The position numbers were made by a program, and so were the translations under genes. A stretch of 64,000 bases of DNA from a virus (Duplodnaviria; Heunggongvirae; Uroviricota; Caudoviricetes): the IMG/VR virus record IMGVR_UViG_3300035502_000495. One strand, written 5' to 3'. The notes beneath the pieces are model-generated. The model made no database searches and was not told where the DNA came from. It saw only the letters and a list, made by a program, of their open reading frames with translations. Shown one piece after another: positions 2,375 through 49,262 of the stretch (position 1 is the stretch's first letter; each line of letters begins with the position of its first letter).

Positions 2375-3346
2375 TTATTTTCCCACCCCATGGTTAGAAT
2401 TATATCCAAAATTATAGGAATCATAAAGCTCAATATAATATTTTTCTTTTTCATTTAATAAATCTCGCGGGCATTCTTCCAAAAGCTCCCAAGAGAAAGA
2501 CCATAAACCATATTCTTGCATAGCTTGATATAATTTATTATTTGCGGGAGTGTCGATTCCAAGTCCGCATTTCGCGTGTTCCGCCCATCTAGTTGCAATA
2601 TCAGACGCTTGACCGATGTAACATTCTCCAGTTTCTATATTTGTAATTTTATAAATACCAGTTATTGTTTTAGTTCCAAGTATATTTGCTGATAATGCTT
2701 TTAAAGGTTTTTGGAACCAAGTTTGCCATATTAACATACTAAGCACACGAGGCTTGTTCAAAGTCTTTTTAACCTGCTCCAGCCGTGTTATATCAGTTTT
2801 ATCTATATCAGAAATTTGTAGACAATAGAAAGCTAAATCATTTTGAATTTCTTTTTCTCTTACTCTTGCTTGAATACTTGCGGCAAGTGTATCTTTAAGT
2901 TTTTGAAGTTCTTGATTAGTTTTATTAAATTCTATATTTAAAGTTTCTATTTTTTTCTTATATGCGGTTTCCGCATTTTGATATTGTAATTCTAGATTTT
3001 CAAAATATTTATTACTTGCATAATCAGTATTTTGTCTATAAATTTTTAATTGTTCAGAAATTTGATTTTTTTCATTTTCATATAATTCTTCAATTTTTTC
3101 TTTTTCTTTTGTAATATCTTCTAATAACTTTGTTTTCTCATAGGAAAGATTTAATATTTCTTGTTGTATTTTTTCTTTTTCTTTTATTTCATTATCTTTA
3201 TTTACTTTAATATTATGAGCTTTATTCATAACATTATAGCTGATAATAATAAAAATAATACCAATAATAAGAACTACTAAACTTAACATTTCTAAAAAGG
3301 TTATTTTAAGCACCTCCATATAAGAAAAATGGATTAAGTTTATCAC
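2375..3346 (-). CDS. GIY-YIG nuclease domain protein with N-terminal transmembrane segment and coiled coil
   Basis: C-terminal GIYKITNIETGECYIGQASDIATRWAEH...YNFGYNSNHG matches GIY-YIG motif; N-terminal hydrophobic helix and long K/E-rich coiled coil. Confidence 0.55.
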   Translation of the reverse strand: MINLIHFSYMEVLKITFLEMLSLVVLIIGIIFIIISYNVMNKAHNIKVNKDNEIKEKEKIQQEILNLSYEKTKLLEDITKEKEKIEELYENEKNQISEQLKIYRQNTDYASNKYFENLELQYQNAETAYKKKIETLNIEFNKTNQELQKLKDTLAASIQARVREKEIQNDLAFYCLQISDIDKTDITRLEQVKKTLNKPRVLSMLIWQTWFQKPLKALSANILGTKTITGIYKITNIETGECYIGQASDIATRWAEHAKCGLGIDTPANNKLYQAMQEYGLWSFSWELLEECPRDLLNEKEKYYIELYDSYNFGYNSNHGVGK

Positions 3347-3925: not shown

Positions 3926-5035
3926 TCAAAAGATAGATTTAATCGTGCAATCTTTGATGTCTTTATCCTCCCTCATATATTTAAAAAAGCCATGTCTAAT
4001 AGTATGTTCAGTTTTAGATTTTTCCATACATTGAATTGCACATACCTGATTTAAATATTTATCTGGATTCTCTGACATATCTTGTTTCATTTCATCAGAT
4101 ATACCAGAATGAATTATTCCTATATCTTTAAGTTCTTCATTTTCATCATATGCTCCAATGTGAATACGAGAATTATGCCAATTTAAATAATAAGGTTTTG
4201 TTACTGGAATAACAGATTCTTCTCTATAATGAAAATCAATAGGCAAACGAGTTTCTTCTTCATTATCTTTAATCCAATATTGCCATAATTCAATTTCTTT
4301 TCCATAATATTCTTTAGTAGGCTCTTCAAATCCTATAATCACTGCGTCAGCAAAATCAACTTTTTTAGCTTTAAGATTACTATCAGGACGTTTTCCAGGC
4401 TCATATATTCCGTCTTTCTTTTTAATAACCATGCCTTCTTCACCTGCGGCAAGTGCATTTCCTACTCTCTCATAAAGATTATCATACCAGGCTTCCGCCA
4501 ACTCTAAAAAATCATATTGGTCTAAATTATGAAGTTTAAATATTTTTTCTAATATTTTATATCTTAATTCATTTCCAACTTTATTGGCTATCAAATCCAC
4601 TCCTTCATACATTAAAATATCATGGATATAATAATGAATTTTACCCCAGCCACTTTTCTGACGCAAGATTGCTTTATCTGGTAAACATCCCATAATTTCA
4701 GTTACATTCTTTGAACTCCCGCCTGGATAGTATATTTCACCTACTAAAATTGTATCTACTGGTAAACAATCAAGAGCTTCTGCGATATGAGGAACATTGG
4801 CTATTTTTTCTGCTTGTAAACCTGTCTTTTTACTTGAACTACGAGAAAATAAATATGAATTATTTTGATGTTTTTCAAACTGATACCAATATCCATCTTT
4901 CTTTAATTCTCCAAAATAATTTCCACTTTCACAAGCAGATTGGAGTTGACTATCAGTAGATTTATGAATTAGCATAGCTTCATACATTATCGCCTCTGGA
5001 TATAATTCTTGAATTTTGTTTTTATCAAATGCCAT
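3926..5035 (-). CDS. ATP-dependent DNA ligase
   Basis: Motif I ELKKDGYWY (KxDG adenylation lysine), motif IV/V EGMVIKKKDGIYEPGKRP, motif VI LKAKK. Confidence 0.75.
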   Translation of the reverse strand: MAFDKNKIQELYPEAIMYEAMLIHKSTDSQLQSACESGNYFGELKKDGYWYQFEKHQNNSYLFSRSSSKKTGLQAEKIANVPHIAEALDCLPVDTILVGEIYYPGGSSKNVTEIMGCLPDKAILRQKSGWGKIHYYIHDILMYEGVDLIANKVGNELRYKILEKIFKLHNLDQYDFLELAEAWYDNLYERVGNALAAGEEGMVIKKKDGIYEPGKRPDSNLKAKKVDFADAVIIGFEEPTKEYYGKEIELWQYWIKDNEEETRLPIDFHYREESVIPVTKPYYLNWHNSRIHIGAYDENEELKDIGIIHSGISDEMKQDMSENPDKYLNQVCAIQCMEKSKTEHTIRHGFFKYMREDKDIKDCTIKSIF

Positions 5036-9348: not shown

Positions 9349-9846
9349 TCAATTTTTTATATTAATTCTTGTTAAAGTAGTATTATTTATAATTTTGGCA
9401 ATTTTAATTTTATTATTAGTAGCAAGTGCATCTGCAAGCTCATTTTCTAAAATTCCACAATGAGATTTACAATGGATTACTTGACAATTAAAAAAATCTA
9501 TAGTAAGATAATTATAAAGAGATTTAATTAAATCAATATTTTCTATTTGTTTCTTTTTGCTATTTATCCAATTATTTTTTGCCCATGAATATATCCATGA
9601 ATTACATATATTAACACAATATGCTGAATCTGAATATATTAAACAAGTTTCATTTTTAAATTTAGTTTGTGCTAATTCAAAAGCTAAAAGAATAGCTTTT
9701 AATTCAGCTTGATTATTAGTAATAAGAGGCTCTTGAACATTTTCACAATCAATTATTGTTTGAGTTTCTTTATCTTTTACTACAATGGCATAACCACCTG
9801 GACCAGGATTACCTTTACTACTTCCATCAGTATAAATTTCTATCAT
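9349..9846 (-). CDS. ribonuclease H
   Basis: MIEIYTDGSSKGNPGPGGYA... canonical RNase HI N-terminus; conserved D/E/D residues. Confidence 0.8.
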   Translation of the reverse strand: MIEIYTDGSSKGNPGPGGYAIVVKDKETQTIIDCENVQEPLITNNQAELKAILLAFELAQTKFKNETCLIYSDSAYCVNICNSWIYSWAKNNWINSKKKQIENIDLIKSLYNYLTIDFFNCQVIHCKSHCGILENELADALATNNKIKIAKIINNTTLTRINIKN

Positions 9847-22779: not shown

Positions 22780-23042
22780 TTTCTTTGATACACTATAATT
22801 TTAACTAGATAATTTATTTAAACTTGATAAAATTATAAAGCGCCCTAAAGAGGTCTTAGCTTAGAGTATTTTACTCAAAATTCATTTAATTTTTGATTTT
22901 TTAACTTGAAAAAGTTAAAGCATGAAAATGCAATGAAGTTAGTAAATTATAATTTAGTTTTGTATATTTTCAATAAAAAGAATATTTTACAATAACCAAA
23001 TTATTTTTGAACACTTTATATCAAATCAAAGAGGATTATTTT

Positions 23043-24248
23043 ATGCACCATTCTTATTGTAAGAATGTAAACATTTTAGATAGGGAAGGTATTTATTTTT
23101 GTATTACTCAATGTTTATCTGATAAGTGGAATAGATATGATGTTATAAATTTCATTAATGAATATCTTCCTAGTTTTAGTAAAGATGAAGTTAGAAATAT
23201 TATTAAATATAATAGAGATTTTTTAAAAGGAACCTTATATACAATCGCGGATGTCCTCGCTTATGAGATTAAGACGCGGACGGTACATTTTAAACCTATT
23301 AAATATAAAGAGAAATATGATAGCAATTCTAAGAAAACTAGAGAAATAGGTGTCCAATCTATTAAACATCAATTATATGATTATATTGCAGTTTATTATG
23401 CAAGAGAAGTATGGGAGAAAAAGATTGGAGACTATCAATGTGCTTCAATGCCTGGTCGAGGTCAGGTATTTGGTAAAAAATTAATAGAAAATTGTATTAG
23501 AACTTTTCCTAAAAAGACGAGATTTGCAGTTAAAGGAGATATTAGAAAATGTTATCCTTCAATTAATACTAGAAGATTGAAAAAGTTATTAAAGAAAGAT
23601 ATAGATAATGAAGATTTACTATATCTTATTTTTTATTTAATAGACTCTTTTAAACAAGGATTGTCGATAGGTTCTTTTCTTAGTCAATATTTATGCAATT
23701 ATTACTTATCATTTGCTTATCATTATATAGAAACAAATTTAAGTCGTAATTATTATTTTATGTTATTTTATATGGATGACTTTATTCTTATAGCAGAAAA
23801 TAAATCTGAATTAGCTACGGCGATGATTAAGATAGTTCAATATTTTAAAGAGTATTTAGACTTAGAAGTTAAAAATACTTGGCAAATATTTCCAATAGAT
23901 TATTTTAGTAAAGATGGTAAAAGACGCGGTCGCGCAATAGATATGATGGGATATGTAATTTATAAAACTCATACAGAAGTTAGACCATGTATCTTTTTAA
24001 AGGCTAGACGATTATATATTTATACTTATATACATTACGGGCAATTTAATAAGAGAATACCAGAGAAATTAGCACATCAATGCATTTCTTATTATGGTTG
24101 GTTTGTAAATTCTAATTCAGAATGGTTTATTAGAGAATATAATGTAAAGAAATTAGTTCATATGTCTGAAGTTGCGGTATCTTATTATTCAAAGCAAAAA
24201 AATAATAGAGAATCTTTAAAACGAGATTCTCTATTTTTTTTATTCTGA
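23043..24248 (+). CDS. DGR reverse transcriptase
   Basis: FYMDDFILIAENKSELA (YMDD box), upstream QGLSIGSFLSQYLCNYYL finger/palm motifs; AGAGGA RBS before ATG 23043 (ORF track 23007 uses a TTG). Confidence 0.85.
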   Translation: MHHSYCKNVNILDREGIYFCITQCLSDKWNRYDVINFINEYLPSFSKDEVRNIIKYNRDFLKGTLYTIADVLAYEIKTRTVHFKPIKYKEKYDSNSKKTREIGVQSIKHQLYDYIAVYYAREVWEKKIGDYQCASMPGRGQVFGKKLIENCIRTFPKKTRFAVKGDIRKCYPSINTRRLKKLLKKDIDNEDLLYLIFYLIDSFKQGLSIGSFLSQYLCNYYLSFAYHYIETNLSRNYYFMLFYMDDFILIAENKSELATAMIKIVQYFKEYLDLEVKNTWQIFPIDYFSKDGKRRGRAIDMMGYVIYKTHTEVRPCIFLKARRLYIYTYIHYGQFNKRIPEKLAHQCISYYGWFVNSNSEWFIREYNVKKLVHMSEVAVSYYSKQKNNRESLKRDSLFFLF

Positions 24249-38714: not shown

Positions 38715-39124
38715 TTATTGGCATATTTTTTATACGGTATATGCCTTACCGCTGCCACCATTACGCACTGACTATGCGGAAGATTTCTCTTCATTGACTT
38801 TTACTATAACAACCCAAAGTCATTAAGGCGGTTATAAGGTTCGCTACTCACTCTAGCGCGTCACTCTCTTCAAAGAATATTTCCGAATATCTTTAAGTTT
38901 GTTTAAGCCAACCAAGTGACGAGGAAATATTAATGCCATCTCTAAAACTATCCTACAATGCCAGTTTCATAATAACTAACACACGCTTTCTTTCAGTTCA
39001 TGGATTAGAACCAAGATATTGTTTTACTTCATCTCTTGTTTTGAAGTATCATGATATAAAAGTTAGACCAAGTAGACTCTTACTTGTGGTAGAGCTTGTT
39101 AACAATCTCTATAAATCTAACTAG

Positions 39125-39206
39125 TGGGCAGAGAAGGACTCGAACCTTCGATGTTTCTGATGTCAGGATTTTACAGACCCCTACCCTCGCCGCTAGGTTA
39201 CCTGCC
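39125..39206 (-). tRNA. tRNA-Tyr (GUA), type II
   Basis: Acceptor GGGCAGG/TCTGCCC, D arm ACC-TAGCGGCGAG-GGT, anticodon loop CTGTAAA identical to E. coli tRNA-Tyr, T arm GAAGG-TTCGAGT-CCTTC, A73. Confidence 0.65.
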
Positions 39207-39537
39207 CAAGTATATTGGGGAATTATCCCCTGACTTAGTTTTACGGACTAAATCTTCGAGACTGCGCAGTCTCCGCCGTGTTTTCTTTAAAGTCTATATT
39301 CCTTCAAGACTTGGTTCTTATTTATGTCCTCCCCATATGGCAGGTTTTCTTAAATGGTTTCCTCATTATCCCAGTGCATTTATATACCGAGCTGAGATTG
39401 ACGCGGTTGGAATCCTATTCTTTATCATTAGATTGCCATCTAACTAGAGCTTGTACTTCGCTCTCCCAATTACTTCACATTCTAATTGGTAAGACGTTAT
39501 TGAACCTTGGAAGGAGCGACCTTCTCATATCAATAAA

Positions 39538-39606
39538 TTCTGATGCTGGACTCGAACCAGCGGTTTCGGGGCTACCGACGTTTTATCCCATTAAACTAAT
39601 CAGACT
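39538..39606 (-). ncRNA. aberrant tRNA-like element (acceptor + D arm + T arm, non-canonical anticodon arm)
   Basis: T arm GCTGG-TTCGAGT-CCAGC, 6-bp acceptor GTCTGAT/ATCAGAA, D stem GTTT/AAAC, but the middle folds only as CGGT-AGCCCCGAA-ACCG (9-nt loop, no variable region); promoter motif copy upstream at 39710-39765. Confidence 0.4.
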
Positions 39607-40403
39607 TTAAACAGATTATGCTACCTTCTCCCATCTGTTATGGAACCAACTAGTTTTTATTTTATAAACTATTTTAAATAAATAAAATAGAACTCGTTTA
39701 ATTTTTTCTTTTTATTATATAAATATTATAATATATATTTTATTAAAAATCAATTAAGAATTGTAGCAATTTTTTTATAACAGAAAACTGCTAAAAACTG
39801 AGAAAGTGGAAAGAAAAAGTAATAAATTATTTTAATAAAATCCTACATACCTACAGACGAAGATTATAACTTCATTTTATTTTAATAATACGTGCTATTT
39901 ACACTAGTCTGTTTTATGGAACGATTTTATTTAAATTGTGCAATACCAGTATTTGCACCACGGTATTCAGGCACCCGTGTTTTCGTCGACTCTGGATATC
40001 CTGCCTTCATTCGTCATTATTTAAAAGGAAAAGAAAATGACAACCAAACCTACATTCACCGATATTTCGGAATATATCCTCTTGATATATTAAGTCACTC
40101 TTGTTCTGGGAAAGAGAACCTTCGACAGAATTTACTTATCTCTATTCTAGTTTCGAAATAAGCATCATTCTATCTATTGCTACGCATCAGAATTGAACTG
40201 ATTTAACCAAGCTTATGAGGCTCGGTGAGATATCCAACCTCCCGCCAGCTATATTTAATTTGATTATTTTGTATGTCAAGCAATGTTATCATCATAAAAG
40301 TTATTTTCTAACCACGTTTACTTTCAAATTGCGTTAAGTCTTTAACTACCTTTGCTTAATAAAGGTGCTATTATTAAATAGCTGTTGGTTGACAAAGCCA
40401 AAT

Positions 40404-40475
40404 AGCGTGTATGGGATTCGGACCCATGTAACTACCTTGAAGGGGTAGCTTCTGACACCACTCGAATAACACGCC
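40404..40475 (-). tRNA. tRNA-Glu (UUC)
   Basis: Acceptor GGCGTGT/ACACGCT, anticodon stem CTACC/GGTAG loop CCTTCAA, T arm ATGGG-TCCGAAT-CCCAT (C55). Confidence 0.6.
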
Positions 40476-40909
40476 AGATTAATGGCACTTTATTTTATAA
40501 GGTGTGCCTACCTTAAAAAGAGAGGGTTAAACAAAAATTTTTCTGTCTGTATTGCTCTTGTAAGATTTGAACTTACATTAAAGTAATAAACTTTTGTCTT
40601 ATCATTAAACGAAAGAGCATTTGCAAGTGCCTCGAAGAGAGCTGCTAAAAATCTAGGCTTTGATATTTGGACTTGCAATCTTTGGGGTAATGTCTTATGC
40701 TTGAGCTGCATTACCCCACCTTCTAAAAAACATTTTATTTATTTATCTTATATAAATATTATATTATATTTTTTTAATAAAATCAATTAAGAATATTATC
40801 TTCCATGAAAGTAATATAGCCTTCGAGTCAGCCAACTGCCAATTTATTGGATTTCAGTGCGTTTATTATTCCTCCCGCACACTTTGGATGACCTATTATC
40901 TAGGTAAAC

Positions 40910-40982
40910 TGGGAAGGTGGGGCTTGAACCCACGACACCACGATTAATCAAAAATTAAGATTTGAACTTAAACCAATTCCCA
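40910..40982 (-). pseudogene. degenerate tRNA-like element (5-nt anticodon loop)
   Basis: Perfect T arm GTGGG-TTCAAGC-CCCAC and 6-bp acceptor TGGGAA/TTCCCA, D stem GTTT/AAAT, but anticodon arm TTAAT-TTTTG-ATTAA; overlaps 3' end of HNH gene. Confidence 0.35.
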
Positions 40983-41585
40983 TTGTTCATCAGTAAAATT
41001 ATTTATATCTTTTTTTCTACTTGGTAAATTTTCAGTTTTACACCATTTAGTAATTGCTTTATCACTAACTCCATATTGTTCTCCTATCTTTGTAAAAGGA
41101 ACTGTTCTAATAAGATGTTTTAAAGTATCTCTATCTGGTCTTTCAACTATTCGAGATTGTTTTTTATAACAATCTTCACATAAACCACTTTTAGAATATC
41201 TTGTAATTTCCTTGCCGCAATTTGAACAAAAATACATTTTTTTATTTTGCAATTGTCCTTTATTTTCTCTTAATTGATTAGCAATATCTTCATTATAAAC
41301 TTTATACTTATATAATTCTTCCTCAGAAAAAAGTTTATCGTGAATTTCTCTATGGCAATTTGCACAAACTAAAATACATTTTTTTATTTCTGCTAAATCT
41401 TTTTCTAAATCATGGCAAGTTCCATTAGAAGAAATACCATATAATTTTTCTTCAGCATTGATATGATGAAATTCTAAAGCTGAATTAGTTTTATGATAAC
41501 CACATATATTACACTGATTACCACATACCTTAATTAAATTATCTTTTCTTCTTCTTCTATAATTACTTGTTTCTGTTGCACCCAT
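40968..41585 (-). CDS. HNH endonuclease (homing-endonuclease-like) with C-terminal HTH
   Basis: VCGNQCNICGYHK...LEFHHI...VCANCHREIH HNH motif; AAAGGAG RBS before internal Met at 41585 (ORF track start 41681 overlaps a tRNA fragment). Confidence 0.65.
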   Translation of the reverse strand: MGATETSNYRRRRKDNLIKVCGNQCNICGYHKTNSALEFHHINAEEKLYGISSNGTCHDLEKDLAEIKKCILVCANCHREIHDKLFSEEELYKYKVYNEDIANQLRENKGQLQNKKMYFCSNCGKEITRYSKSGLCEDCYKKQSRIVERPDRDTLKHLIRTVPFTKIGEQYGVSDKAITKWCKTENLPSRKKDINNFTDEQWELV

Positions 41586-41680
41586 ATTTTTCACTCCTTT
41601 ATTTTTCATACTGTATATGAAAAATAAACCGATATGATTAATTACTGTTGTCCAATGTTCATTTATGCTACTTAACACCA

Positions 41681-41720
41681 TTTTTGCACAGTCGTGTGCT
41701 CATACCAACTGAGCTACATC
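41681..41720 (-). pseudogene. tRNA 5'-half fragment (acceptor + D arm only)
   Basis: Minus strand GGGATGT-AG-CTCA-GTTGGTA-TGAG-C... then no pairing anticodon or T arm; lies between two promoter motif copies and the HNH gene. Confidence 0.4.
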
Positions 41721-41943
41721 CCAAAATTTCAAACAAGACACTTTATTTTTAAATTAAATTAATAACTATTACTTTTAAATATAAATTTGATATTCTTTTT
41801 AAAAATTGCAGTATGTGTCTTTATTTTTTCTTTTGTTTTATTATATTAATATTATAATATAATTTTTTATTAAAATCAATTAAGCACTTTTGATAAATTA
41901 TTTTTTTCTTTTTGTTTATATAAATATTATAACAAAAATTTTT

Positions 41944-42273
41944 TTAAATTTCAAATATTTTATAATTATAATGAAGAAGCAATTCTTTAATATTTTTATA
42001 TCCAACTAGATTAAAACTATGGCACTCAAAACCATCAATTTTAATATTATTTGCAACAATATACTTTGCTAAATCATATCCAGTCTTTTTTCCGCCTAAA
42101 TCATGGTCAAAAGCTACAAAAACAGTTCCATCTAGCTTATTATCTTTAACTTTATCTAACCAATCTTTGGCTTGATTATAAGTTTTACAAATTATTATTT
42201 CTTCAAAAACTGATTTCATCTTCTCTGGAACTGCTCTTTCATCATCAATCCATAATAAATATTTCCATTTCAC
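41944..42273 (-). CDS. CheY-like receiver (REC) domain protein, stand-alone
   Basis: YLLWIDDE... acidic pocket, FDHDLGG, conserved Lys; 109 aa. Confidence 0.35.
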   Translation of the reverse strand: MKWKYLLWIDDERAVPEKMKSVFEEIIICKTYNQAKDWLDKVKDNKLDGTVFVAFDHDLGGKKTGYDLAKYIVANNIKIDGFECHSFNLVGYKNIKELLLHYNYKIFEI

Positions 42274-42356
42274 ATAATCACTTCTTTCTTTTCTTTATAT
42301 AAATATTATATCAAAAATTTTATATAAAATCAAAAGAAAGAAAATAACTAAATATT

Positions 42357-42941
42357 TTATTTAAATTGATGTTGCTCTATTTGAAGGCGACAACCTTTTA
42401 CTCGTCTGCTAAAAAAATAATAATCATTCATTTCATAATAATTATTATTATAATATATTAAAGTATTTCCTTCTAAAACATACATAGCTGCCTCTAAACA
42501 TTCTTCTGGCAATTCCCCATTATCATATAGTTTTAATGCTTTATTTAAATTTCCGTCTGTTACAGGAGTAAATTGACCAGATTGATAAATTACATCATGG
42601 ATTGAGTTTTCAAAAATCTCTGAATTAACTCTATTCATAACCACAATACCTACAGCTTGCTGTCCAGCTTCGCATTGATTGCCAGCTTCCGCATAAATAA
42701 TTGATGCCATATATCTTAAATCTTCTGCATCAAAATCAACTTCCTCTTGTTCTGTATTTTCTTCTATTGTTTCTTCTTCATTAGTTTCTATTTCTATTAT
42801 TTCTTCTTCTTCAAAAGCAGTATCTTGTATTAAAGATTGAAAATCTACTACTTCTATTTGTAAATCTTGTGTTGGCAAGGGATTAAATAATGATAACACA
42901 AAACTCATTACATTAATTCCTAAAAAGTATTTAATTTTCAT
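42357..42941 (-). CDS. secreted SleB-like cell-wall hydrolase (Hydrolase_2 family)
   Basis: Signal peptide; YMASIIYAEAGNQCEAGQQAVGIVVMNRV...IYQSGQFTPVTDG matches SleB motif ArvIyaEA...gq.aVa.VvlNRv...QFs. Confidence 0.6.
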   Translation of the reverse strand: MKIKYFLGINVMSFVLSLFNPLPTQDLQIEVVDFQSLIQDTAFEEEEIIEIETNEEETIEENTEQEEVDFDAEDLRYMASIIYAEAGNQCEAGQQAVGIVVMNRVNSEIFENSIHDVIYQSGQFTPVTDGNLNKALKLYDNGELPEECLEAAMYVLEGNTLIYYNNNYYEMNDYYFFSRRVKGCRLQIEQHQFK

Positions 42942-48044: not shown

Positions 48045-49262
48045 TTAATTGTGATATTTAAGTAAAAACTCGTTACTAACTGCTTTGAAACTTTTAGTTC
48101 CGTCTTGAGAGCGGAATACCAATCCTTCCCGCATACCGCCATCGATTGCGGAATCCGCAGTTGCAATATTAAGTAACTCTTCAACCGTATCAGGCAAAAT
48201 AAATTTCTCATCTACTATTGGCACCCAAGGGATACCATACTCTGCCATAATAGCTGCTGCTTCTACAGAATTTAAACGTCCTCTATCAGAGAAAATAAGA
48301 TTAAATCCTGCAAACTCATGTTCTTTAAGAGAATATTCACGCTTTTGAATCCCAGCTCCATAGGTTTCTCCTTGTAAAGTTGCCCACTCCAAATTATATT
48401 TCTCTACTAAATCACCAAGCACATCCTCAAAATGATACTTTTCAGACATCTCGGTATATGGATTAAAATCATAGTAGCAATTCTTATCAGGTTTATCAAA
48501 TACTACATTACGTGAGCAGATAAAATAATCATGCTTCTTTCTTCCAGTTTTTCGGTAAGTAGCTGTTGTTGAGCTGCCATCAATTTTCTCTGTAGCAATC
48601 CATTCTGACTTATCATTTAAAATCCATGACATGCACTGGACCCGCTCTTCATCTGTTTTCTGGACCCATGTAGGCCATGCGGTCTTCTTATCTTTCTTCT
48701 TACCAAAGAAGAAAAACATCACCTTTCTGCCCCACTCTCGTCTCATCATCCATTTTGCCCATGATTTCTTAAATATATCAGGTCTACGTTGAGACATTTT
48801 CTTATATTTGTCCTCAGAATTTGCCTTACGCCTATTATCTTCCTCAGCAGAATAAATAACTTTAAGTTCTTTAGTTAAAAATCTTGATTCATCATCTATT
48901 CTATGAATTTCTCCACTATCTGGAATTATAATAGCATTATCATCATACTTAGTCCAACCAAAATCTAAAGGATGCATAAGCAAACCTTGTGAAACGAAAT
49001 TTCCAGCTCCGCCAAATGTATAGCGTTGAGTCTTAATCTTATAATGCTTCTTTTCAAGGAACGCAAAAACTTCTGTCTCTGGTACTTTTGAGTCTATCTC
49101 AAAATATACTCCAATCTCACCTCGCTGGAAGGTATTTTTCTTGACCATAATCTGCCAACCGCCTACAACCGCGGCTTCGCAATTATCTGAACCCTTAATA
49201 GGAATAATCGCGTCTATTTTCACCAAGTACGCGAGCTCTCTTTCTTGTCTCTCGTTTAACAT
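48045..49262 (-). CDS. RNA ligase (Rnl5/DraRnl-like, N-terminal extra domain)
   Basis: Motif I ATEKIDGSS (KxDG), motif IV/V REGLVFRS...KSFKAV; about 200-aa N-terminal domain preceding the nucleotidyltransferase core. Confidence 0.6.
   Translation of the reverse strand: MLNERQERELAYLVKIDAIIPIKGSDNCEAAVVGGWQIMVKKNTFQRGEIGVYFEIDSKVPETEVFAFLEKKHYKIKTQRYTFGGAGNFVSQGLLMHPLDFGWTKYDDNAIIIPDSGEIHRIDDESRFLTKELKVIYSAEEDNRRKANSEDKYKKMSQRRPDIFKKSWAKWMMRREWGRKVMFFFFGKKKDKKTAWPTWVQKTDEERVQCMSWILNDKSEWIATEKIDGSSTTATYRKTGRKKHDYFICSRNVVFDKPDKNCYYDFNPYTEMSEKYHFEDVLGDLVEKYNLEWATLQGETYGAGIQKREYSLKEHEFAGFNLIFSDRGRLNSVEAAAIMAEYGIPWVPIVDEKFILPDTVEELLNIATADSAIDGGMREGLVFRSQDGTKSFKAVSNEFLLKYHN

What the first reader, a model, noticed from the sequence alone, without database searches (positions are those of the whole stretch)
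39538..41720. Aberrant tRNA-like elements and a tRNA 5' fragment flank the HNH gene, giving possible Y-RNA-like tRNA mimics
Element 39538-39606 has its own promoter motif, a good acceptor, D arm and T arm, but a 4-bp stem with a 9-nt loop where the anticodon arm should be, and no variable loop. Element 40910-40982 has a perfect T arm and acceptor but a 5-nt anticodon loop. At 41681-41720 there is an isolated tRNA 5' half (acceptor plus D arm) sitting between two promoter motif copies, just upstream of the HNH endonuclease. These could be tRNA genes broken by HNH homing, or purposely non-decoding tRNA mimics such as Ro/Rsr-binding YrlA-like RNAs or decoys for anticodon nucleases.
Basis: partly seen in the sequence, partly recalled or inferred. 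Interest (0 to 1): 0.55.

Follow-up and report, generated by a model that had tools for sequence, protein, structure and literature searches.

The report
tRNA-shaped HNH intron splits tRNA-Asn
Two of the three "broken tRNA" pieces are the two halves of one phage asparagine-tRNA gene, split in its anticodon loop by a mobile endonuclease gene that has no self-splicing ribozyme but is itself folded like a tRNA, which suggests that ordinary tRNA-trimming enzymes plus an RNA ligase remove it; the third piece is a separate tRNA look-alike that cannot decode.

Summary
All features lie on the minus strand inside a phage tRNA cluster. The "5' half" (41688-41723) and the 3' part of "element B" (40909-40946) are the two exons of one tRNA-Asn(GUU) gene. 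A 741-nt insertion carrying the 205-aa HNH gene splits it between anticodon bases 35 and 36.

Distant HNH relatives occupy the same site inside bona fide group I introns, a published class from 2026. The window's type has no ribozyme core. Its ends instead form a second, inner tRNA shape around the ORF: acceptor stem, D arm, long-range helix, and a T arm overlapping the stop codon.

Across 14 homologues, 95.6% of cells pair, against 68% in shuffles. Cutting exactly at the inner tRNA's ends restores a 7-nt anticodon loop in 14 of 15 cases. The inner element encodes CCA exactly when the outer tRNA gene does (15 of 15). One ORF-less 112-nt version exists.

I infer excision by RNase P and RNase Z and sealing by an RNA ligase; the window encodes one. 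This step is untested.

Element A (39537-39605) is a real tRNA-like gene with a truncated anticodon arm, and a second one lies at 40552-40619. The Y-RNA reading is not supported.

The parts
41849..41881 (-). Copy of the repeated phage promoter motif (TTGATT-17-TATAAT core at 41879-41851), about 125 nt upstream of the tRNA-Asn 5' end.
   Evidence: The 33-nt motif occurs 7 times in the window, all on the minus strand, with 0 expected. The consensus scan also finds it.
41688..41723 (-). tRNA-Asn(GUU) 5' exon: UGGGAUG UA GCUC AGUUGGUAU GAGC A CACGA CUGU. It holds the acceptor 5' strand, the D arm, the anticodon-stem 5' strand, and C32 to U35.
   Evidence: ARAGORN with introns allowed. Coordinates verified. 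The stems covary with the 3' exon across 14 loci.
40947..41687 (-). 741-nt insertion (intron) between U35 and U36. It has no ribozyme core, it is tRNA-shaped, and it carries the HNH gene.
   Evidence: There is no Intron_gpI or other ribozyme match, and nhmmer finds no ribozyme core.
41665..41687 (-). 5' part of the inner tRNA-like domain: acceptor 5' strand GCAAAAA, then UG, then D arm GUGU-UAAGUA-GCAU.
   Evidence: It pairs with 40948-40954. Six of 7 inner acceptor pairs and 2 of 4 inner D pairs show changes on both sides. The unconstrained MFE fold recovers both helices.
41650..41662 (-). 5' strand of a long-range helix (AUGAACAUUGGAC, core CAUUG) that closes the ORF-containing 'loop'. It stands where an anticodon stem would be in the inner tRNA shape.
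   Evidence: It pairs with 40976-40988 in the MFE fold. Homologues pair here too, for example CCUUGGGC/GCCCAAUGG in L003 and CACUGGUC/GACGAGUG in L172, but the register varies (inspection).
40968..41585 (-). HNH homing-endonuclease ORF of 205 aa, starting at MGATETS and preceded by an AAAGGAG ribosome-binding site. It has an HNH motif with CxxC pairs, a second zinc ribbon and a C-terminal helix-turn-helix-like domain.
   Evidence: The family has 2388 proteins at E<1e-5, all about 205 aa. Alignment A1 shows the invariant residues. The N-terminal 80 aa are homologous to the HNH of group I tRNA introns.
40976..40988 (-). 3' strand of the long-range helix (GAACAAUGGGAAU). It lies inside the codons for the conserved C-terminal D-E-Q-W.
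40955..40971 (-). Inner T arm UUAAG-UUCAAAU-CUUAA, overlapping the ORF stop codon.
   Evidence: The hairpin and its T-loop consensus are conserved in 14 of 14 loci, with the A-U to G-C swap in 6 of them.
40947..40954 (-). Inner acceptor 3' strand UUUUUGA plus discriminator U. These are the last bases of the insertion.
40909..40946 (-). tRNA-Asn 3' exon: UAA UCGUG GUGUC GUGGG UUCAAGC CCCAC CUUCCCA G. It holds U36 to A38, the anticodon-stem 3' strand, the variable loop, the T arm, the acceptor 3' strand and G73. No CCA is encoded.
   Evidence: When the exons are joined, ARAGORN calls tRNA-Asn(gtt).
39537..39605 (-). Element A, a stand-alone tRNA-like gene with a truncated anticodon arm (UCGG-UAGCC-CCGA), a G1.A72 mismatch and discriminator U.
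   Evidence: Rfam tRNA 40.7 bits. ARAGORN makes no call. The distance from D arm to T arm is 18 nt, against 22-23 nt in 198 normal tRNAs.
39723..39755 (-). Exact copy of the promoter motif upstream of element A.
   Evidence: (0 mismatches).
40552..40619 (-). Where the anticodon arm should be it has AAAGU-UUAUU-ACUUU and a 3-nt variable region.
   Evidence: Rfam tRNA 44.6 bits. Its syntenic partner is L001 3877-3940, which has compensatory changes in the acceptor, D and T stems and an unrelated 15-nt linker.
48045..49262 (-). ATP-dependent RNA ligase of the Rnl5 type with an N-terminal OB fold. It is the candidate exon-sealing enzyme. This is context, not proof.
   Evidence: Pfam RNA_ligase plus PHA02142 OB. 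Naegleria gruberi RNA ligase 5cot, E 9e-25. TIGR02306.

Best explanation
SHOWN
- Window 41723-40909 (minus strand) is a single tRNA-Asn(GUU) gene.
- A 741-nt mobile element carrying a 205-aa HNH homing endonuclease interrupts it between anticodon bases U35 and U36.
- The element has no group I core and no other known ribozyme.
- Its first 23 nt form an acceptor 5' strand, U8-G9 and a D arm. Its last 25 nt form a T arm overlapping the stop codon, an acceptor 3' strand and a discriminator. A long-range helix closes off the ORF.
- The insertion is therefore a second tRNA shape nested in the anticodon loop of the first, with the ORF standing where its own anticodon loop would be. The topology resembles tmRNA.
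- This architecture is conserved with compensatory changes in 14 homologues, and it exists once without an ORF.

INFERRED
- Because the insertion begins at position +1 and ends at position 73 (or 76) of a tRNA-like top half, the host's tRNA-maturation nucleases could cut it out.
- RNase P would cut at its 5' end and leave U35 with a 3'-OH.
- RNase Z would cut after its discriminator and leave a 5'-phosphate on U36.
- The two exon halves stay held together by the outer acceptor and anticodon stems, with ends that an ATP-dependent RNA ligase can join directly.
- The window encodes such a ligase, together with a kinase/phosphoesterase pair, a Thg1-like enzyme and a cREC protein.
- The excised piece would be the HNH mRNA with tRNA-like, protected ends.

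ELEMENT A
- Element A (39537-39605) is a separate gene with its own promoter: a tRNA-like RNA that keeps the acceptor, D and T arms but has only a 13-nt hairpin for an anticodon arm, so it cannot decode.
- The element at 40552-40619 is of the same kind.
- Most likely these keep only the part of a tRNA that processing enzymes read. They would act as cleavage marks that define the ends of the conserved non-coding RNAs transcribed with them.
For: One split gene
- ARAGORN with introns allowed finds it.
- The joined exons give tRNA-Asn(gtt), with G73 in 10 of 11 Asn loci parsed (also in L184 and L185 by inspection).
- The unconstrained MFE fold of the 824-nt precursor recovers both the outer and the inner cloverleaf helices.

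Conserved context
- Every HNH relative of 59-95% identity that I could place sits at the same site: L001-L008 and L170-L175, and L184, L185.

Relation to group I introns
- About 55 loci with only the N-terminal HNH domain are inside tRNA-Asn, Thr, His or Leu anticodon loops.
- Those carry Rfam Intron_gpI matches of 60-104 bits.
- This matches the published 35/36 HNH group I introns (PMC13011429).

No ribozyme in the window's type
- No Intron_gpI or other ribozyme match at E<=10, even when only 881 nt are searched, nor in L006, L008 or L016.
- An nhmmer profile of 11 such cores matches only the HNH coding overlap in the 12 nested introns. It matches 12 held-out controls at 1e-16 to 1e-57.
- The P7 motif GATATAGTCC is present in 1 of 12 nested introns, against 22 of 23 group I introns.

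Inner tRNA shape
- 95.6% of 518 cells pair, against 68.4% in shuffles (0 of 500 reach it) and 34-49% when partners are slid.
- 27 of 37 pairs change on both sides. The inner acceptor stem accounts for 6 of its 7 pairs (the 12-sequence version is).

Exact boundaries
- Deleting from inner +1 to the discriminator or NCCA leaves a 7-nt loop in 14 of 15 cases.

3'-end style
- The inner element encodes CCA in the 7 loci whose outer tRNA gene encodes CCA, and lacks it in the 8 that do not.

ORF-less version
- L184 6010-6193 has a 112-nt intron with acceptor, T arm and ACCA ends in tRNA-Lys(UUU).

Enzymes in the window
- Rnl5-type ligase.
- AAA_33 kinase plus metallophosphatase.
- Thg1-like protein.
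- cREC directly upstream of the split gene here and in L001, L002 and L006.

Need for the tRNA
- No other tRNA-Asn is seen in the window or in L003 or L007.
- Asn makes up 7.2% of codons.

Element A and its analogue
-.
Against: - No transcript or splicing data exist; excision and ligation are inferred from anatomy alone.
- The intron is clearly mobile. Window and L001 are 92.7% identical in the intron but differ at 12 of 38 positions in the 3' exon. Intact, covarying exons may therefore reflect repeated recent invasion of intact alleles rather than selection after insertion.
- L001's acceptor stem has 3 mismatches, apparently from co-conversion. Function of the tRNA is thus not always preserved.
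- L012 gives an 8-nt loop.
- Rnl5-type ligases are known, from my memory of the NgrRnl and DraRnl work, for sealing nicks in duplexes rather than anticodon loops.
- I could not show that the ligase and the intron lie on the same contig in relatives. A ligase homologue occurs on another contig of the same metagenome as L001 and L002.
- The inner D loop mostly lacks the G18-G19 pair.
- I picked the stem segments for the covariation count by hand. Their order and spacing were then verified.
- Element A has no detectable homologue. Its position in L001 is held by an intact, unrelated tRNA-Met, so it may simply be a decaying gene.
Confidence: 0.5

Rival explanations
1. Selfish insertion with a dead tRNA. 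The HNH element homed into the tRNA-Asn gene and destroyed it, and the exons are never rejoined. The tRNA-like ends serve only the element: RNase P and RNase Z release the HNH mRNA from the tRNA-operon transcript and leave it with stable ends. Alternatively the ends are relics of the tRNA-like gene from which the element arose.
For: - Mobility and co-conversion: intron 92.7% identical against a 3' exon 68% identical between window and L001, and a chimeric, mismatched acceptor stem in L001.
- Abundant intron-less target alleles.
- More distant family members are free-standing genes next to intact tRNAs: L011, L014, L015, L025, L091.
- Free-standing endonuclease genes in phage tRNA clusters are known (T4 SegB, T5 F-Tfl; from memory).
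Against: - Releasing an mRNA does not require the element's boundaries to coincide to the base with +1 and 73/76 of the tRNA shape, nor the remainder to be a 7-nt loop (14 of 15).
- The ORF-less 112-nt version keeps the tRNA-like ends and intact exons although there is no mRNA to release.
- The interrupted gene is the only tRNA-Asn seen in an AT-rich phage with 7.2% Asn codons.
- A dead gene should decay, yet 13 of 14 loci keep a full cloverleaf.
Confidence: 0.3
2. Hidden ribozyme. The insertion is a self-splicing intron whose catalytic core is too divergent to recognise or overlaps the coding sequence, or is a ribozyme class not yet described. The tRNA-like ends would be peripheral decoration.
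For: - Same insertion site and homologous HNH domain as proven self-splicing group I introns.
- The 5' exon ends in U.
- Some known introns let ORFs run into core elements (from memory).
Against: - No match to Intron_gpI or any Rfam ribozyme at E<=10 in an 881-nt search.
- The nhmmer profile of related cores finds nothing beyond the coding overlap, while all 12 controls hit.
- Only about 100 nt upstream and about 20 nt downstream of the ORF are non-coding, and the tRNA-like arms take up most of that.
- In the register that gives GUU, the last intron base is U or A, not the terminal G of group I.
- The C-terminal 120 aa are conserved as protein, with invariant Cys, Trp and Pro.
- The interior is 25-27% G+C, and the fold z-score is only -1.35.
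Confidence: 0.07
3. The elements are deliberate non-decoding tRNA mimics: Y-RNA/YrlA-like partners of a Ro-type protein, partners of the vault-like protein, or decoys for tRNA-targeting defence nucleases.
For: - The window encodes a DUF2828+DUF7788 protein with a vWA-type DTSGS motif (32627-34096), which I recall being likened to TROVE/Ro. It also encodes a major-vault-protein homologue (13538-16060).
- Phage TROVE proteins are said to work 'with a tRNA-like partner' (PMC7824862).
- Element A and 40552-40619 are non-decoding tRNA-like RNAs. The latter is conserved in shape but not in its anticodon-arm region.
Against: - Element B and the 5' half are exons, not mimics.
- No Y_RNA or YrlA model matches.
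- The ends of element A form an acceptor stem, not a Ro-binding helix with its bulge.
- RNAs without an anticodon loop cannot bait anticodon nucleases.
- The TROVE likeness of DUF2828 was not verified: phmmer against PDB sequences found no Ro60.
- The gene lies 5.4 kb from element A, not adjacent to it.
Confidence: 0.1
4. Element A is simply a tRNA pseudogene that lost 4 nt of its anticodon arm. It has no function of its own.
For: - It is a single instance with no homologue found.
- An intact tRNA-Met occupies the same slot in L001.
- It has a G1.A72 mismatch.
Against: - It keeps an exact promoter copy and perfect D and T arms.
- A second short element in the same cluster has been maintained with compensatory changes.
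- Such short forms are rare: 4 against 198 tRNAs with the usual 22-23-nt spacing.
- It sits directly 5' of a non-coding RNA conserved at 77-90% identity.
Confidence: 0.3

Closest known systems
Group I introns at position 35/36 of tRNA-Asn(GUU) carrying HNH endonuclease genes (Patescibacteria; Nakagawa et al., mSystems 2026, PMC13011429)
   Same: - Same host gene, same insertion point and a homologous N-terminal HNH domain.
- My own scan recovers them: about 55 loci, with Intron_gpI at 60-104 bits.
- They are mobile, and the ORF sits at the 5' side.
   Different: - The window's type has no ribozyme core.
- Its ORF is twice as long, with an added zinc ribbon and helix-turn-helix domain, and fills the insertion.
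- Its ends form a tRNA shape.
- Its last base is not G.
- It is found in large gut-phage contigs, not in Patescibacteria.
Archaeal protein-spliced (bulge-helix-bulge) introns that carry homing endonuclease genes, for example the I-DmoI intron (from memory)
   Same: Both are endonuclease-bearing introns in a stable RNA gene, removed not by a ribozyme but by a cellular endonuclease followed by an RNA ligase. This is what I propose the window's element works like.
   Different: - There is no bulge-helix-bulge motif here. The junctions lie in a 4x4-nt internal loop next to a 7-bp helix.
- The proposed nucleases are RNase P and RNase Z.
- The ends would be 3'-OH and 5'-P rather than cyclic phosphate and 5'-OH.
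- The host is bacterial or phage.
tmRNA
   Same: A tRNA-like domain (acceptor stem plus T arm, with CCA) is formed by the two ends of an RNA that encloses an ORF. tmRNA is matured by tRNA-processing enzymes.
   Different: - Neither ARAGORN nor Rfam finds a tmRNA match.
- The element encodes a full 205-aa protein with its own ribosome-binding site, not a tag peptide.
- It lies inside another tRNA.
- It has a proper D arm.
tRNA punctuation and tRNA-like processing signals (mitochondrial transcripts; MALAT1-mascRNA) (from memory)
   Same: RNase P and RNase Z cuts at a tRNA-shaped element define the ends of neighbouring RNAs. This is my reading of element A, of 40552-40619 and of the ends of the intron.
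   Different: Those are not introns, and no exon ligation follows. Here the tRNA-like element sits inside a tRNA or between phage non-coding RNAs.
Free-standing homing endonuclease genes in phage tRNA clusters (T4 SegB, T5 F-Tfl enzymes) (from memory)
   Same: They are HNH or GIY-YIG genes that live among phage tRNA genes and target tRNA-gene DNA. More distant members of this HNH family are arranged like that.
   Different: Those lie between genes. The window's copy lies inside the anticodon loop and has tRNA-like ends.
YrlA / bacterial Y RNAs
   Same: Non-coding RNAs with a tRNA-like acceptor/T/D module that cannot decode.
   Different: In YrlA the RNA termini form the Ro-binding stem and the tRNA-like part is internal. 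There is no model match here, and no adjacent rsr gene.

Membership tests
Group I intron (tRNA 35/36, HNH-bearing) | Inserted in the anticodon loop between positions 35 and 36 of tRNA-Asn(GUU). | tested here: met
   CUGU|...|UAA in the window and in 11 of 13 other HNH loci; L016 and L175 are cut one base earlier. The joined exons give Asn(gtt).
Group I intron (tRNA 35/36, HNH-bearing) | Encodes an HNH homing endonuclease homologous to those of the published introns. | tested here: met
   Residues 6-85 align at 40-57% identity to ORFs inside Rfam-confirmed group I tRNA introns.
Group I intron (tRNA 35/36, HNH-bearing) | Catalytic core P3-P9 (Rfam RF00028), including the P7 guanosine-binding region. 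| tested here: not met
   No hit at E<=10 in 3.7-kb and 0.9-kb searches. The nhmmer core profile is negative while 12 of 12 controls are positive. The P7 motif is present in 1 of 12 nested introns, against 22 of 23 group I introns.
Group I intron (tRNA 35/36, HNH-bearing) | 5' exon ends in U and the intron ends in G (omega-G). | tested here: not met
   The 5' exon ends in U35. The intron ends in U in CCA-less loci and in A in CCA loci, in the only register that gives GUU. A register ending in G would give the anticodon AUU.
Canonical decoding tRNA (element A) | Acceptor stem, D arm, and T arm with the UUCRANY loop. | tested here: met
   Rfam tRNA 40.7 bits. Six acceptor pairs plus G1.A72, D arm GUUU/AAAC, T arm GCUGG-UUCGAGU-CCAGC.
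Canonical decoding tRNA (element A) | 5-bp anticodon stem with a 7-nt loop that presents an anticodon. | tested here: not met
   Only UCGG-UAGCC-CCGA is present. The D-to-T distance is 18 nt, against 22-23 nt in 198 tRNAs. ARAGORN makes no call.
YrlA / Y RNA | Match to the Rfam Y RNA or YrlA covariance models. | tested here: not met
   Nothing at the gathering score in the whole window, and nothing at E<=10 in 38700-42400.
YrlA / Y RNA | 5' and 3' ends pair into a Ro-binding stem, and the tRNA-like module is internal. | tested here: not met
   The ends of element A and of 40552-40619 form an ordinary acceptor stem followed by a discriminator.
YrlA / Y RNA | Encoded next to an rsr/Ro60 (TROVE) gene. 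| tested here: inconclusive
   A DUF2828+DUF7788 (vWA-like) gene lies at 32627-34096, 5.4 kb from element A. Its TROVE likeness was not verified.
tmRNA | tRNA-like domain plus a tag-peptide reading frame, recognised by ARAGORN or RF00023. | tested here: not met
   No tmRNA is called in the window, while the same tools do find tmRNAs in L011 and L019.
Archaeal bulge-helix-bulge intron | Two 3-nt bulges separated by a 4-bp helix at the two splice sites. | tested here: not met
   By inspection of the fold, the junctions face each other in a 4+4-nt internal loop between the 5-bp anticodon stem and the 7-position inner acceptor stem.
Substrate of RNase P / RNase Z (tRNA top half) | A 7-bp acceptor stem stacked on a 5-bp T stem with a T loop, an unpaired discriminator, and a 3' style (CCA or none) like the genome's own tRNAs. 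| tested here: met
   Present in 15 of 15 nested elements. The CCA style matches the outer gene in 15 of 15.
Substrate of RNase P / RNase Z (tRNA top half) | Actual cleavage at +1 and after position 73. | not testable with these tools
   This needs enzyme assays or end-mapping of RNA.

The most novel reading that the evidence does not exclude
This would be a third kind of bacterial or phage intron, neither group I nor group II. It is a mobile, endonuclease-carrying insertion that has replaced its ribozyme by a tRNA disguise. The cell's own RNase P and RNase Z would cut it out of the anticodon loop, and an RNA ligase (phage Rnl) would rejoin the tRNA. That amounts to protein-dependent tRNA splicing in the bacterial world, with the excised intron serving as a tmRNA-like messenger for the endonuclease.
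Probability: 0.45. Interest if true: 0.92.

Novelty: new variant of a known kind. Interest (0 to 1): 0.8.

Why it matters
Bacterial and phage introns are thought to be self-splicing (group I or II). Splicing by an endonuclease plus a ligase is regarded as an archaeal and eukaryotic trait.

A widespread HNH family (2388 proteins) includes members that sit in phage tRNA anticodon loops without any ribozyme. These members have ends that copy a tRNA to the base, including the genome's own CCA habit.

This gives a concrete, cheaply testable candidate for protein-dependent tRNA splicing in bacteria. It also suggests a housekeeping role for phage RNA ligases, beyond repair of anticodon-nuclease damage.

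There is a practical side. Such genes are invisible to standard tRNA finders: here the halves were called a 'tRNA-Ser' and nothing at all. Phage tRNA repertoires are therefore under-counted.

The short tRNA-like genes add a second point. Parts of phage 'tRNA clusters' may be processing signals or RNA partners rather than decoders.

Tried and rejected
- His(GUG) reading of the split gene. Rejected because L007 has GUA at that place, and only GUU is common to all loci.
- Asn(AUU) register with a terminal G, which ARAGORN chooses by default. Rejected because A34 is implausible and because CCA-bearing loci fix the boundary.
- Coding conservation in the 95 nt upstream of the ATG (an apparent peptide NEHWTTVINHIGL). 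Rejected because homologues differ by 1-nt indels. The conservation is the D arm plus the long-range helix.
- Inner arms as a duplication of the outer tRNA. Rejected because the sequences are unrelated.
- Element A as an ORF-less nested intron. Its flanks do not form an outer tRNA (inspection).
- Megablast of 12 kb against GenBank phages found no match.
- An exact 3'-exon search in IMG/VR found nothing. The intron-end pattern found only the L001 contig.
- Two pattern scans for element A relatives found nothing.
- The tRNA-like architecture was not found by a strict script in the more distant full-length relatives L010-L019, L025, L090 and L091.
- An automatic scan for further nested cases gave the known ones plus AT-rich false positives. 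L190 and L292 were checked and dismissed.
- Searching the DUF2828 protein against PDB sequences gave nothing useful. One literature search on 'TROVE' was swamped by the English word.
- The MAFFT alignment of the four short tRNA-likes was structurally wrong, so no covariance model was built.
- The motif AGAYA-N7-CAGCAAWT after tRNAs was not significant.

Full report
**Setting.**
- The finding lies in a cluster of at least 16 tRNA or tRNA-like genes on the minus strand, between 34.5 and 44.1 kb (ARAGORN 14, Rfam 16).
- The window has 29.6% G+C.
- The closest relatives of this region I could place are IMG/VR viral contigs and metagenome contigs of 30-160 kb.
- A 33-nt promoter motif built around TTGATT-17-TATAAT occurs 7 times, always on the minus strand, with none expected by chance. 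Copies lie upstream of element A (39723-39755) and upstream of the 5' half (41849-41881).

**Observation check.**
- Element A (39537-39605) is a genuine tRNA-like sequence. It scores 40.7 bits against Rfam tRNA and is not called by ARAGORN.
- It has a 6-bp acceptor stem plus a G1.A72 mismatch, and good D and T arms.
- Where a 17-nt anticodon arm should be there is only UCGG-UAGCC-CCGA.
- Element B (40909-40982) is a borderline hit (29.3 bits; ARAGORN 'Ser').
- The 5' half is real. However, these last two are not separate objects.

**One split gene.**
- With introns allowed, ARAGORN joins 41723-41688 and 40946-40909 into one tRNA with a 741-nt intron in the anticodon loop.
- The anticodon stem CACGA/UCGUG forms across the insertion.
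- Several splice registers are possible on this sequence alone. Comparison with homologues leaves CUGU|...|UAA, which gives tRNA-Asn(GUU). L007 has GUA where the window has GUG, which rules out the His reading. Loci in which the insertion ends in CCA fix the 3' boundary.
- The 5' part of 'element B' is simply the last 36 nt of the insertion.

**The HNH family and its contexts.**
- The ORF most likely starts at MGATETS (41585), behind an AAAGGAG ribosome-binding site.
- It belongs to a family of 2388 proteins of about 205 aa with no Pfam match. The family has an invariant HNH/CxxC core, a second zinc ribbon and a C-terminal helix-turn-helix-like domain.
- Every relative of 59-95% identity whose surroundings I could read is inserted at the same place in a tRNA. 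These are L001-L008, L170-L175, L184 and L185.
- Three more at 43-49% identity are arranged the same way. L012 and L016 are complete; in L013 the contig ends before the 3' exon.
- Relatives that share only the N-terminal 80 residues (about 55 loci, mostly Patescibacteria and Gammaproteobacteria MAGs) also sit in the anticodon loops of tRNA-Asn, Thr, His or Leu.
  - Their insertions are 500-620 nt.
  - Each carries an Rfam group I core of 60-104 bits downstream of the short ORF.
  - These are the 35/36 HNH group I introns described by Nakagawa et al. in 2026 and shown there to self-splice.
- More distant full-length relatives are free-standing genes beside intact tRNAs.

**No ribozyme in the window's type.**
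- Rfam finds no group I, group II or small self-cleaving ribozyme at E<=10, even when only the 881-nt region is searched.
- It finds none in L006, L008 or L016 either.
- I built a profile from 11 of the related group I cores. In all 12 nested insertions it matches only the stretch that overlaps the HNH coding region. It matches 12 held-out group I introns at 1e-16 to 1e-57.
- The P7 motif GATATAGTCC is present in 22 of 23 group I introns and in 1 of 12 nested ones.
- The ORF leaves about 100 nt at the 5' end and about 20 nt at the 3' end.

**What the ends are instead.**
- The first 7 nt of the insertion (GCAAAAA) pair with the 7 nt before its last base (UUUUUGA).
- The 5' strand is followed by UG and a 4-bp hairpin (GUGU-UAAGUA-GCAU).
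- The 3' strand is preceded by UUAAG-UUCAAAU-CUUAA, a T arm with the T-loop consensus that contains the stop codon.
- Further in, AUGAACAUUGGAC pairs with GAACAAUGGGAAU, which lies inside the codons for the conserved C-terminal D-E-Q-W.
- The insertion is therefore itself cloverleaf-shaped, with the ORF in place of its anticodon loop, nested in the anticodon loop of tRNA-Asn.
- An unconstrained MFE fold of the 824-nt precursor recovers all of these helices.

**Covariation.**
- I extracted the 16 stem and loop segments from 14 loci and checked that they occur in the right order and spacing.
- 95.6% of 518 cells form standard pairs, against 68.4% after shuffling (0 of 500 shuffles reach it) and 34-49% when partners are slid.
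- 27 of 37 pairs change on both sides. These include 6 of 7 in the inner acceptor stem, 2 of 4 in the inner D stem, 2 of 5 in the inner T stem and 5 of 5 in the outer anticodon stem (the 12-sequence version is).
- The long-range helix is present in most loci, but its register shifts, so I give it less weight.

**Three regularities that point to tRNA-type processing.**
1. Exact boundaries.
   - Removing the stretch from inner position +1 to the inner discriminator, or to NCCA, leaves a 7-nt anticodon loop in 14 of 15 cases. L012 gives 8.
   - ARAGORN then calls Asn(gtt) in 9 of the 12 loci tested, and Lys(ttt) in L016. L184 and L185 give the same CUGUUAA loop by inspection.
2. Matching 3' style.
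   - The inner element ends in NCCA in exactly the 7 cases where the outer tRNA gene also encodes CCA.
   - It ends at the discriminator in the 8 where the outer gene does not.
   - It therefore follows the 3'-end convention of the genome it lives in.
3. An ORF-less version.
   - L184 6010-6193 is a 112-nt insertion in tRNA-Lys(UUU).
   - It keeps the acceptor stem GUUUGAA/UUCAAGC, a T arm and ACCA, with intact exons.
   - This recalls endonuclease-less group I introns that persist because they still come out.

**Mobility.**
- Window and L001 are 92.7% identical across the insertion.
- They differ at 12 of 38 positions in the 3' exon and at 4 of 36 in the 5' exon.
- L001's 5' acceptor strand is the window's, while its 3' strand matches the 5' exon of L002 from the same metagenome. 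That leaves three mismatches.
- This is the signature of homing with co-conversion, or possibly of a chimeric assembly.
- Intron-less tRNA-Asn genes with the same anticodon arm are abundant in viral contigs: at least 120 loci, up to 93% identical to the joined exons.
- The exon covariation may therefore reflect different invaded alleles rather than selection after insertion. I do not count it as evidence for splicing.

**Proposed mechanism (inferred).**
- RNase P measures the stacked acceptor and T stems and cuts 5' of position +1. RNase Z cuts 3' of the discriminator of CCA-less precursors. This is established tRNA biology, cited from memory.
- Applied to the inner tRNA shape, these two cuts fall exactly at the two intron boundaries.
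- They leave U35 with a 3'-OH and U36 with a 5'-phosphate, in a tRNA body still held together by the outer stems.
- Those are the ends that ATP-dependent RNA ligases join without any end-healing.
- The window encodes the following candidates and neighbours:
  - an Rnl5-type ligase at 48045-49262 (Naegleria RNA ligase, E 9e-25);
  - an AAA_33 kinase next to a metallophosphatase at 11962-13035;
  - a Thg1-like protein at 16140-16970;
  - a cREC protein directly upstream of the split gene, here and in L001, L002 and L006.
- Phage RNA-repair sets of this kind are reviewed in PMC7824862.
- The gene is the only tRNA-Asn seen in the window, and Asn is 7.2% of codons.
- Weak points:
  - there are no RNA data;
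  - Rnl5 enzymes are known for duplex nicks (from memory);
  - L001 appears broken;
  - L012 is off by one;
  - ligase and intron were not shown to be linked in relatives.
- The main rival is that the tRNA is sacrificed and the tRNA-like ends only mature the endonuclease mRNA. It explains much of the anatomy, but not the base-exact boundaries or the ORF-less copy.

**Element A and a second short tRNA-like gene.**
- Element A has its own promoter.
- It lies directly 5' of a non-coding stretch (39536-39340) that is 77-90% identical to L001 5023-5211 and partly to L003.
- In L001 the same slot holds an intact but unrelated tRNA-Met(CAU). Only the T arm and the downstream RNA are homologous.
- I found no homologue of element A itself, so its stems cannot be tested for covariation.
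  - Its syntenic partner, L001 3877-3940, differs by compensatory changes in the acceptor, D and T stems.
  - The 15-19 nt that replace the anticodon arm are unrelated between the two.
  - L025 711-772 is a third member.
- Among the tRNA-like hits in all sequences held at that point, the distance from D arm to T arm is 22-23 nt in 198 cases and 19 nt or less in only these four solid cases.
- So there is a small class of tRNA-like RNAs selected for the top half and elbow but not for decoding.
- I read them as processing marks for the neighbouring non-coding RNAs. That reading is an inference. A role as partner of the DUF2828/vWA or vault-like proteins, or plain decay in the case of element A, is not excluded.

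**The Y-RNA idea.**
- No Y RNA or YrlA model matches.
- The termini form acceptor stems rather than a Ro-binding helix.
- The likeness of the DUF2828 protein to Ro was not verified.
- Decoys for anticodon nucleases would need an anticodon loop.

**Novelty.**
- Full-text searches found the group I 35/36 paper but nothing on ribozyme-less, tRNA-shaped introns or on RNase P/Z-dependent splicing in phages.
- I file the split gene as a new variant of the known HNH-bearing tRNA intron.
- If the proposed excision route is confirmed, it would be a new kind of intron for bacteria and their viruses.

Noticed in passing
window 40552-40619 (-); L001 3877-3940; L025 711-772: Second short tRNA-like gene (Rfam 44.6 bits, missed by ARAGORN) with a 15-nt mini anticodon arm. 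Its syntenic partner in L001 has compensatory changes in three stems and an unrelated linker.
   Followed up: partly
window 40176-40252 (-); L001 4282-4356: Odd tRNA with anticodon CAU. It has an acceptor stem with a bulged G, a 5-bp D stem, a 7-bp anticodon stem and no position-26 spacer. It is 84% identical between the two phages with compensatory T-stem changes, and neither ARAGORN nor Rfam calls it.
   Followed up: partly
window 39208-39536 (-) and 38715-39123 (-); L001 5023-5295 and 5507-5681; L003 6766-6825: G+C-richer (about 40%) non-coding stretches between tRNA genes, with no ORF and no Rfam match. They are conserved at 76-90% identity with L001. A roughly 75-nt core (ACCGCGUC..AGCUCGGUAUA..GCA.UGGGA..UGAGGAAACC) is shared by three phage lineages. 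They look like unknown structured RNAs punctuated by tRNAs.
   Followed up: partly
window 34507-34592 (-) and 35245-35325 (-): tRNA-Cys(GCA) of 86 nt with a 16-nt variable arm, and tRNA-Thr(UGU) of 81 nt with an 11-nt variable arm. Long variable arms are not expected for these acceptors.
   Followed up: no
window 11962-13035, 13538-16970, 17601-18065, 32627-34096, 41944-42273, 48045-49262 (all -): An unusually complete RNA-repair or RNP gene set: metallophosphatase plus AAA_33 kinase, major-vault-protein homologue (MVP shoulder, Vault_3), Thg1-like protein, YqeY, DUF2828+DUF7788 (vWA-type DTSGS motif), cREC, and an Rnl5-type RNA ligase. The MVP gene is also near the nested intron in L184.
   Followed up: partly
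window 23007-24248 (+), 9349-9846 (-), 2375-3346 (-): A reverse transcriptase (RVT_1, with weak group II / retron-type matches) on the opposite strand, an RNase H and a GIY-YIG endonuclease. These are further mobile-element or RNA-related genes in the window.
   Followed up: no
L184 6010-6193: ORF-less 112-nt tRNA-shaped intron in tRNA-Lys(UUU), with acceptor stem, T arm and ACCA. It sits 430 nt upstream of the HNH-bearing nested tRNA-Asn on the same contig.
   Followed up: yes
L003 7440-7740; L007 9632-10515; L003 10388-10870; L003 9154-9300: Other interrupted tRNAs in related phages. L003 7440-7740 is a tRNA-Leu(UAA)-like gene with a roughly 216-nt insertion containing the group I AUAGUCC motif. 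L007 9632-10515 is a tRNA-Pro(UGG) with an 809-nt insertion carrying a PD-(D/E)XK (PF11645) ORF and no Rfam group I hit. L003 10388-10870 has a PD-(D/E)XK ORF ending in a GAG-UUCAAAU-CUC T-arm-like hairpin inside a tRNA-like context. L003 9154-9300 is a tRNA with a 71-nt hairpin insertion.
   Followed up: no
L001 2864-3676 versus L002 2859-2900: L001's 5' exon acceptor strand (UGGGAUG) mismatches its own 3' strand (CUAGCCA), which instead matches L002's 5' exon (UGGCUAG). This is either a co-conversion tract from homing or a chimeric assembly.
   Followed up: partly
window 34717, 35221, 35848, 36929, 38613 (-): ACAGCAAWT occurs 5 times, all on the minus strand within 4 kb of the tRNA cluster and each a few tens of nt downstream of a tRNA or small ORF (2.0 expected in the window). 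It may be a processing or termination signal.
   Followed up: partly
L016 1026-1152: A RAGATH-33 RNA (121.8 bits) lies about 190 nt upstream of the nested tRNA in a TAG-recoded phage contig. That contig has in-frame TAGs in the HNH ORF and a tRNA(CUA).
   Followed up: no
outer acceptor stems of window, L172, L173, L174; L001 tRNA-Met 4948-5022: A recurrent U6.U67 mismatch in the acceptor stems of these phage tRNAs, and a G1.A72 (once A.A) mismatch in 7 of the 8 CCA-less inner elements (all but L012) and in element A. With a Thg1-like 3'-5' polymerase encoded in the window, 5'-end editing is a possibility.
   Followed up: no
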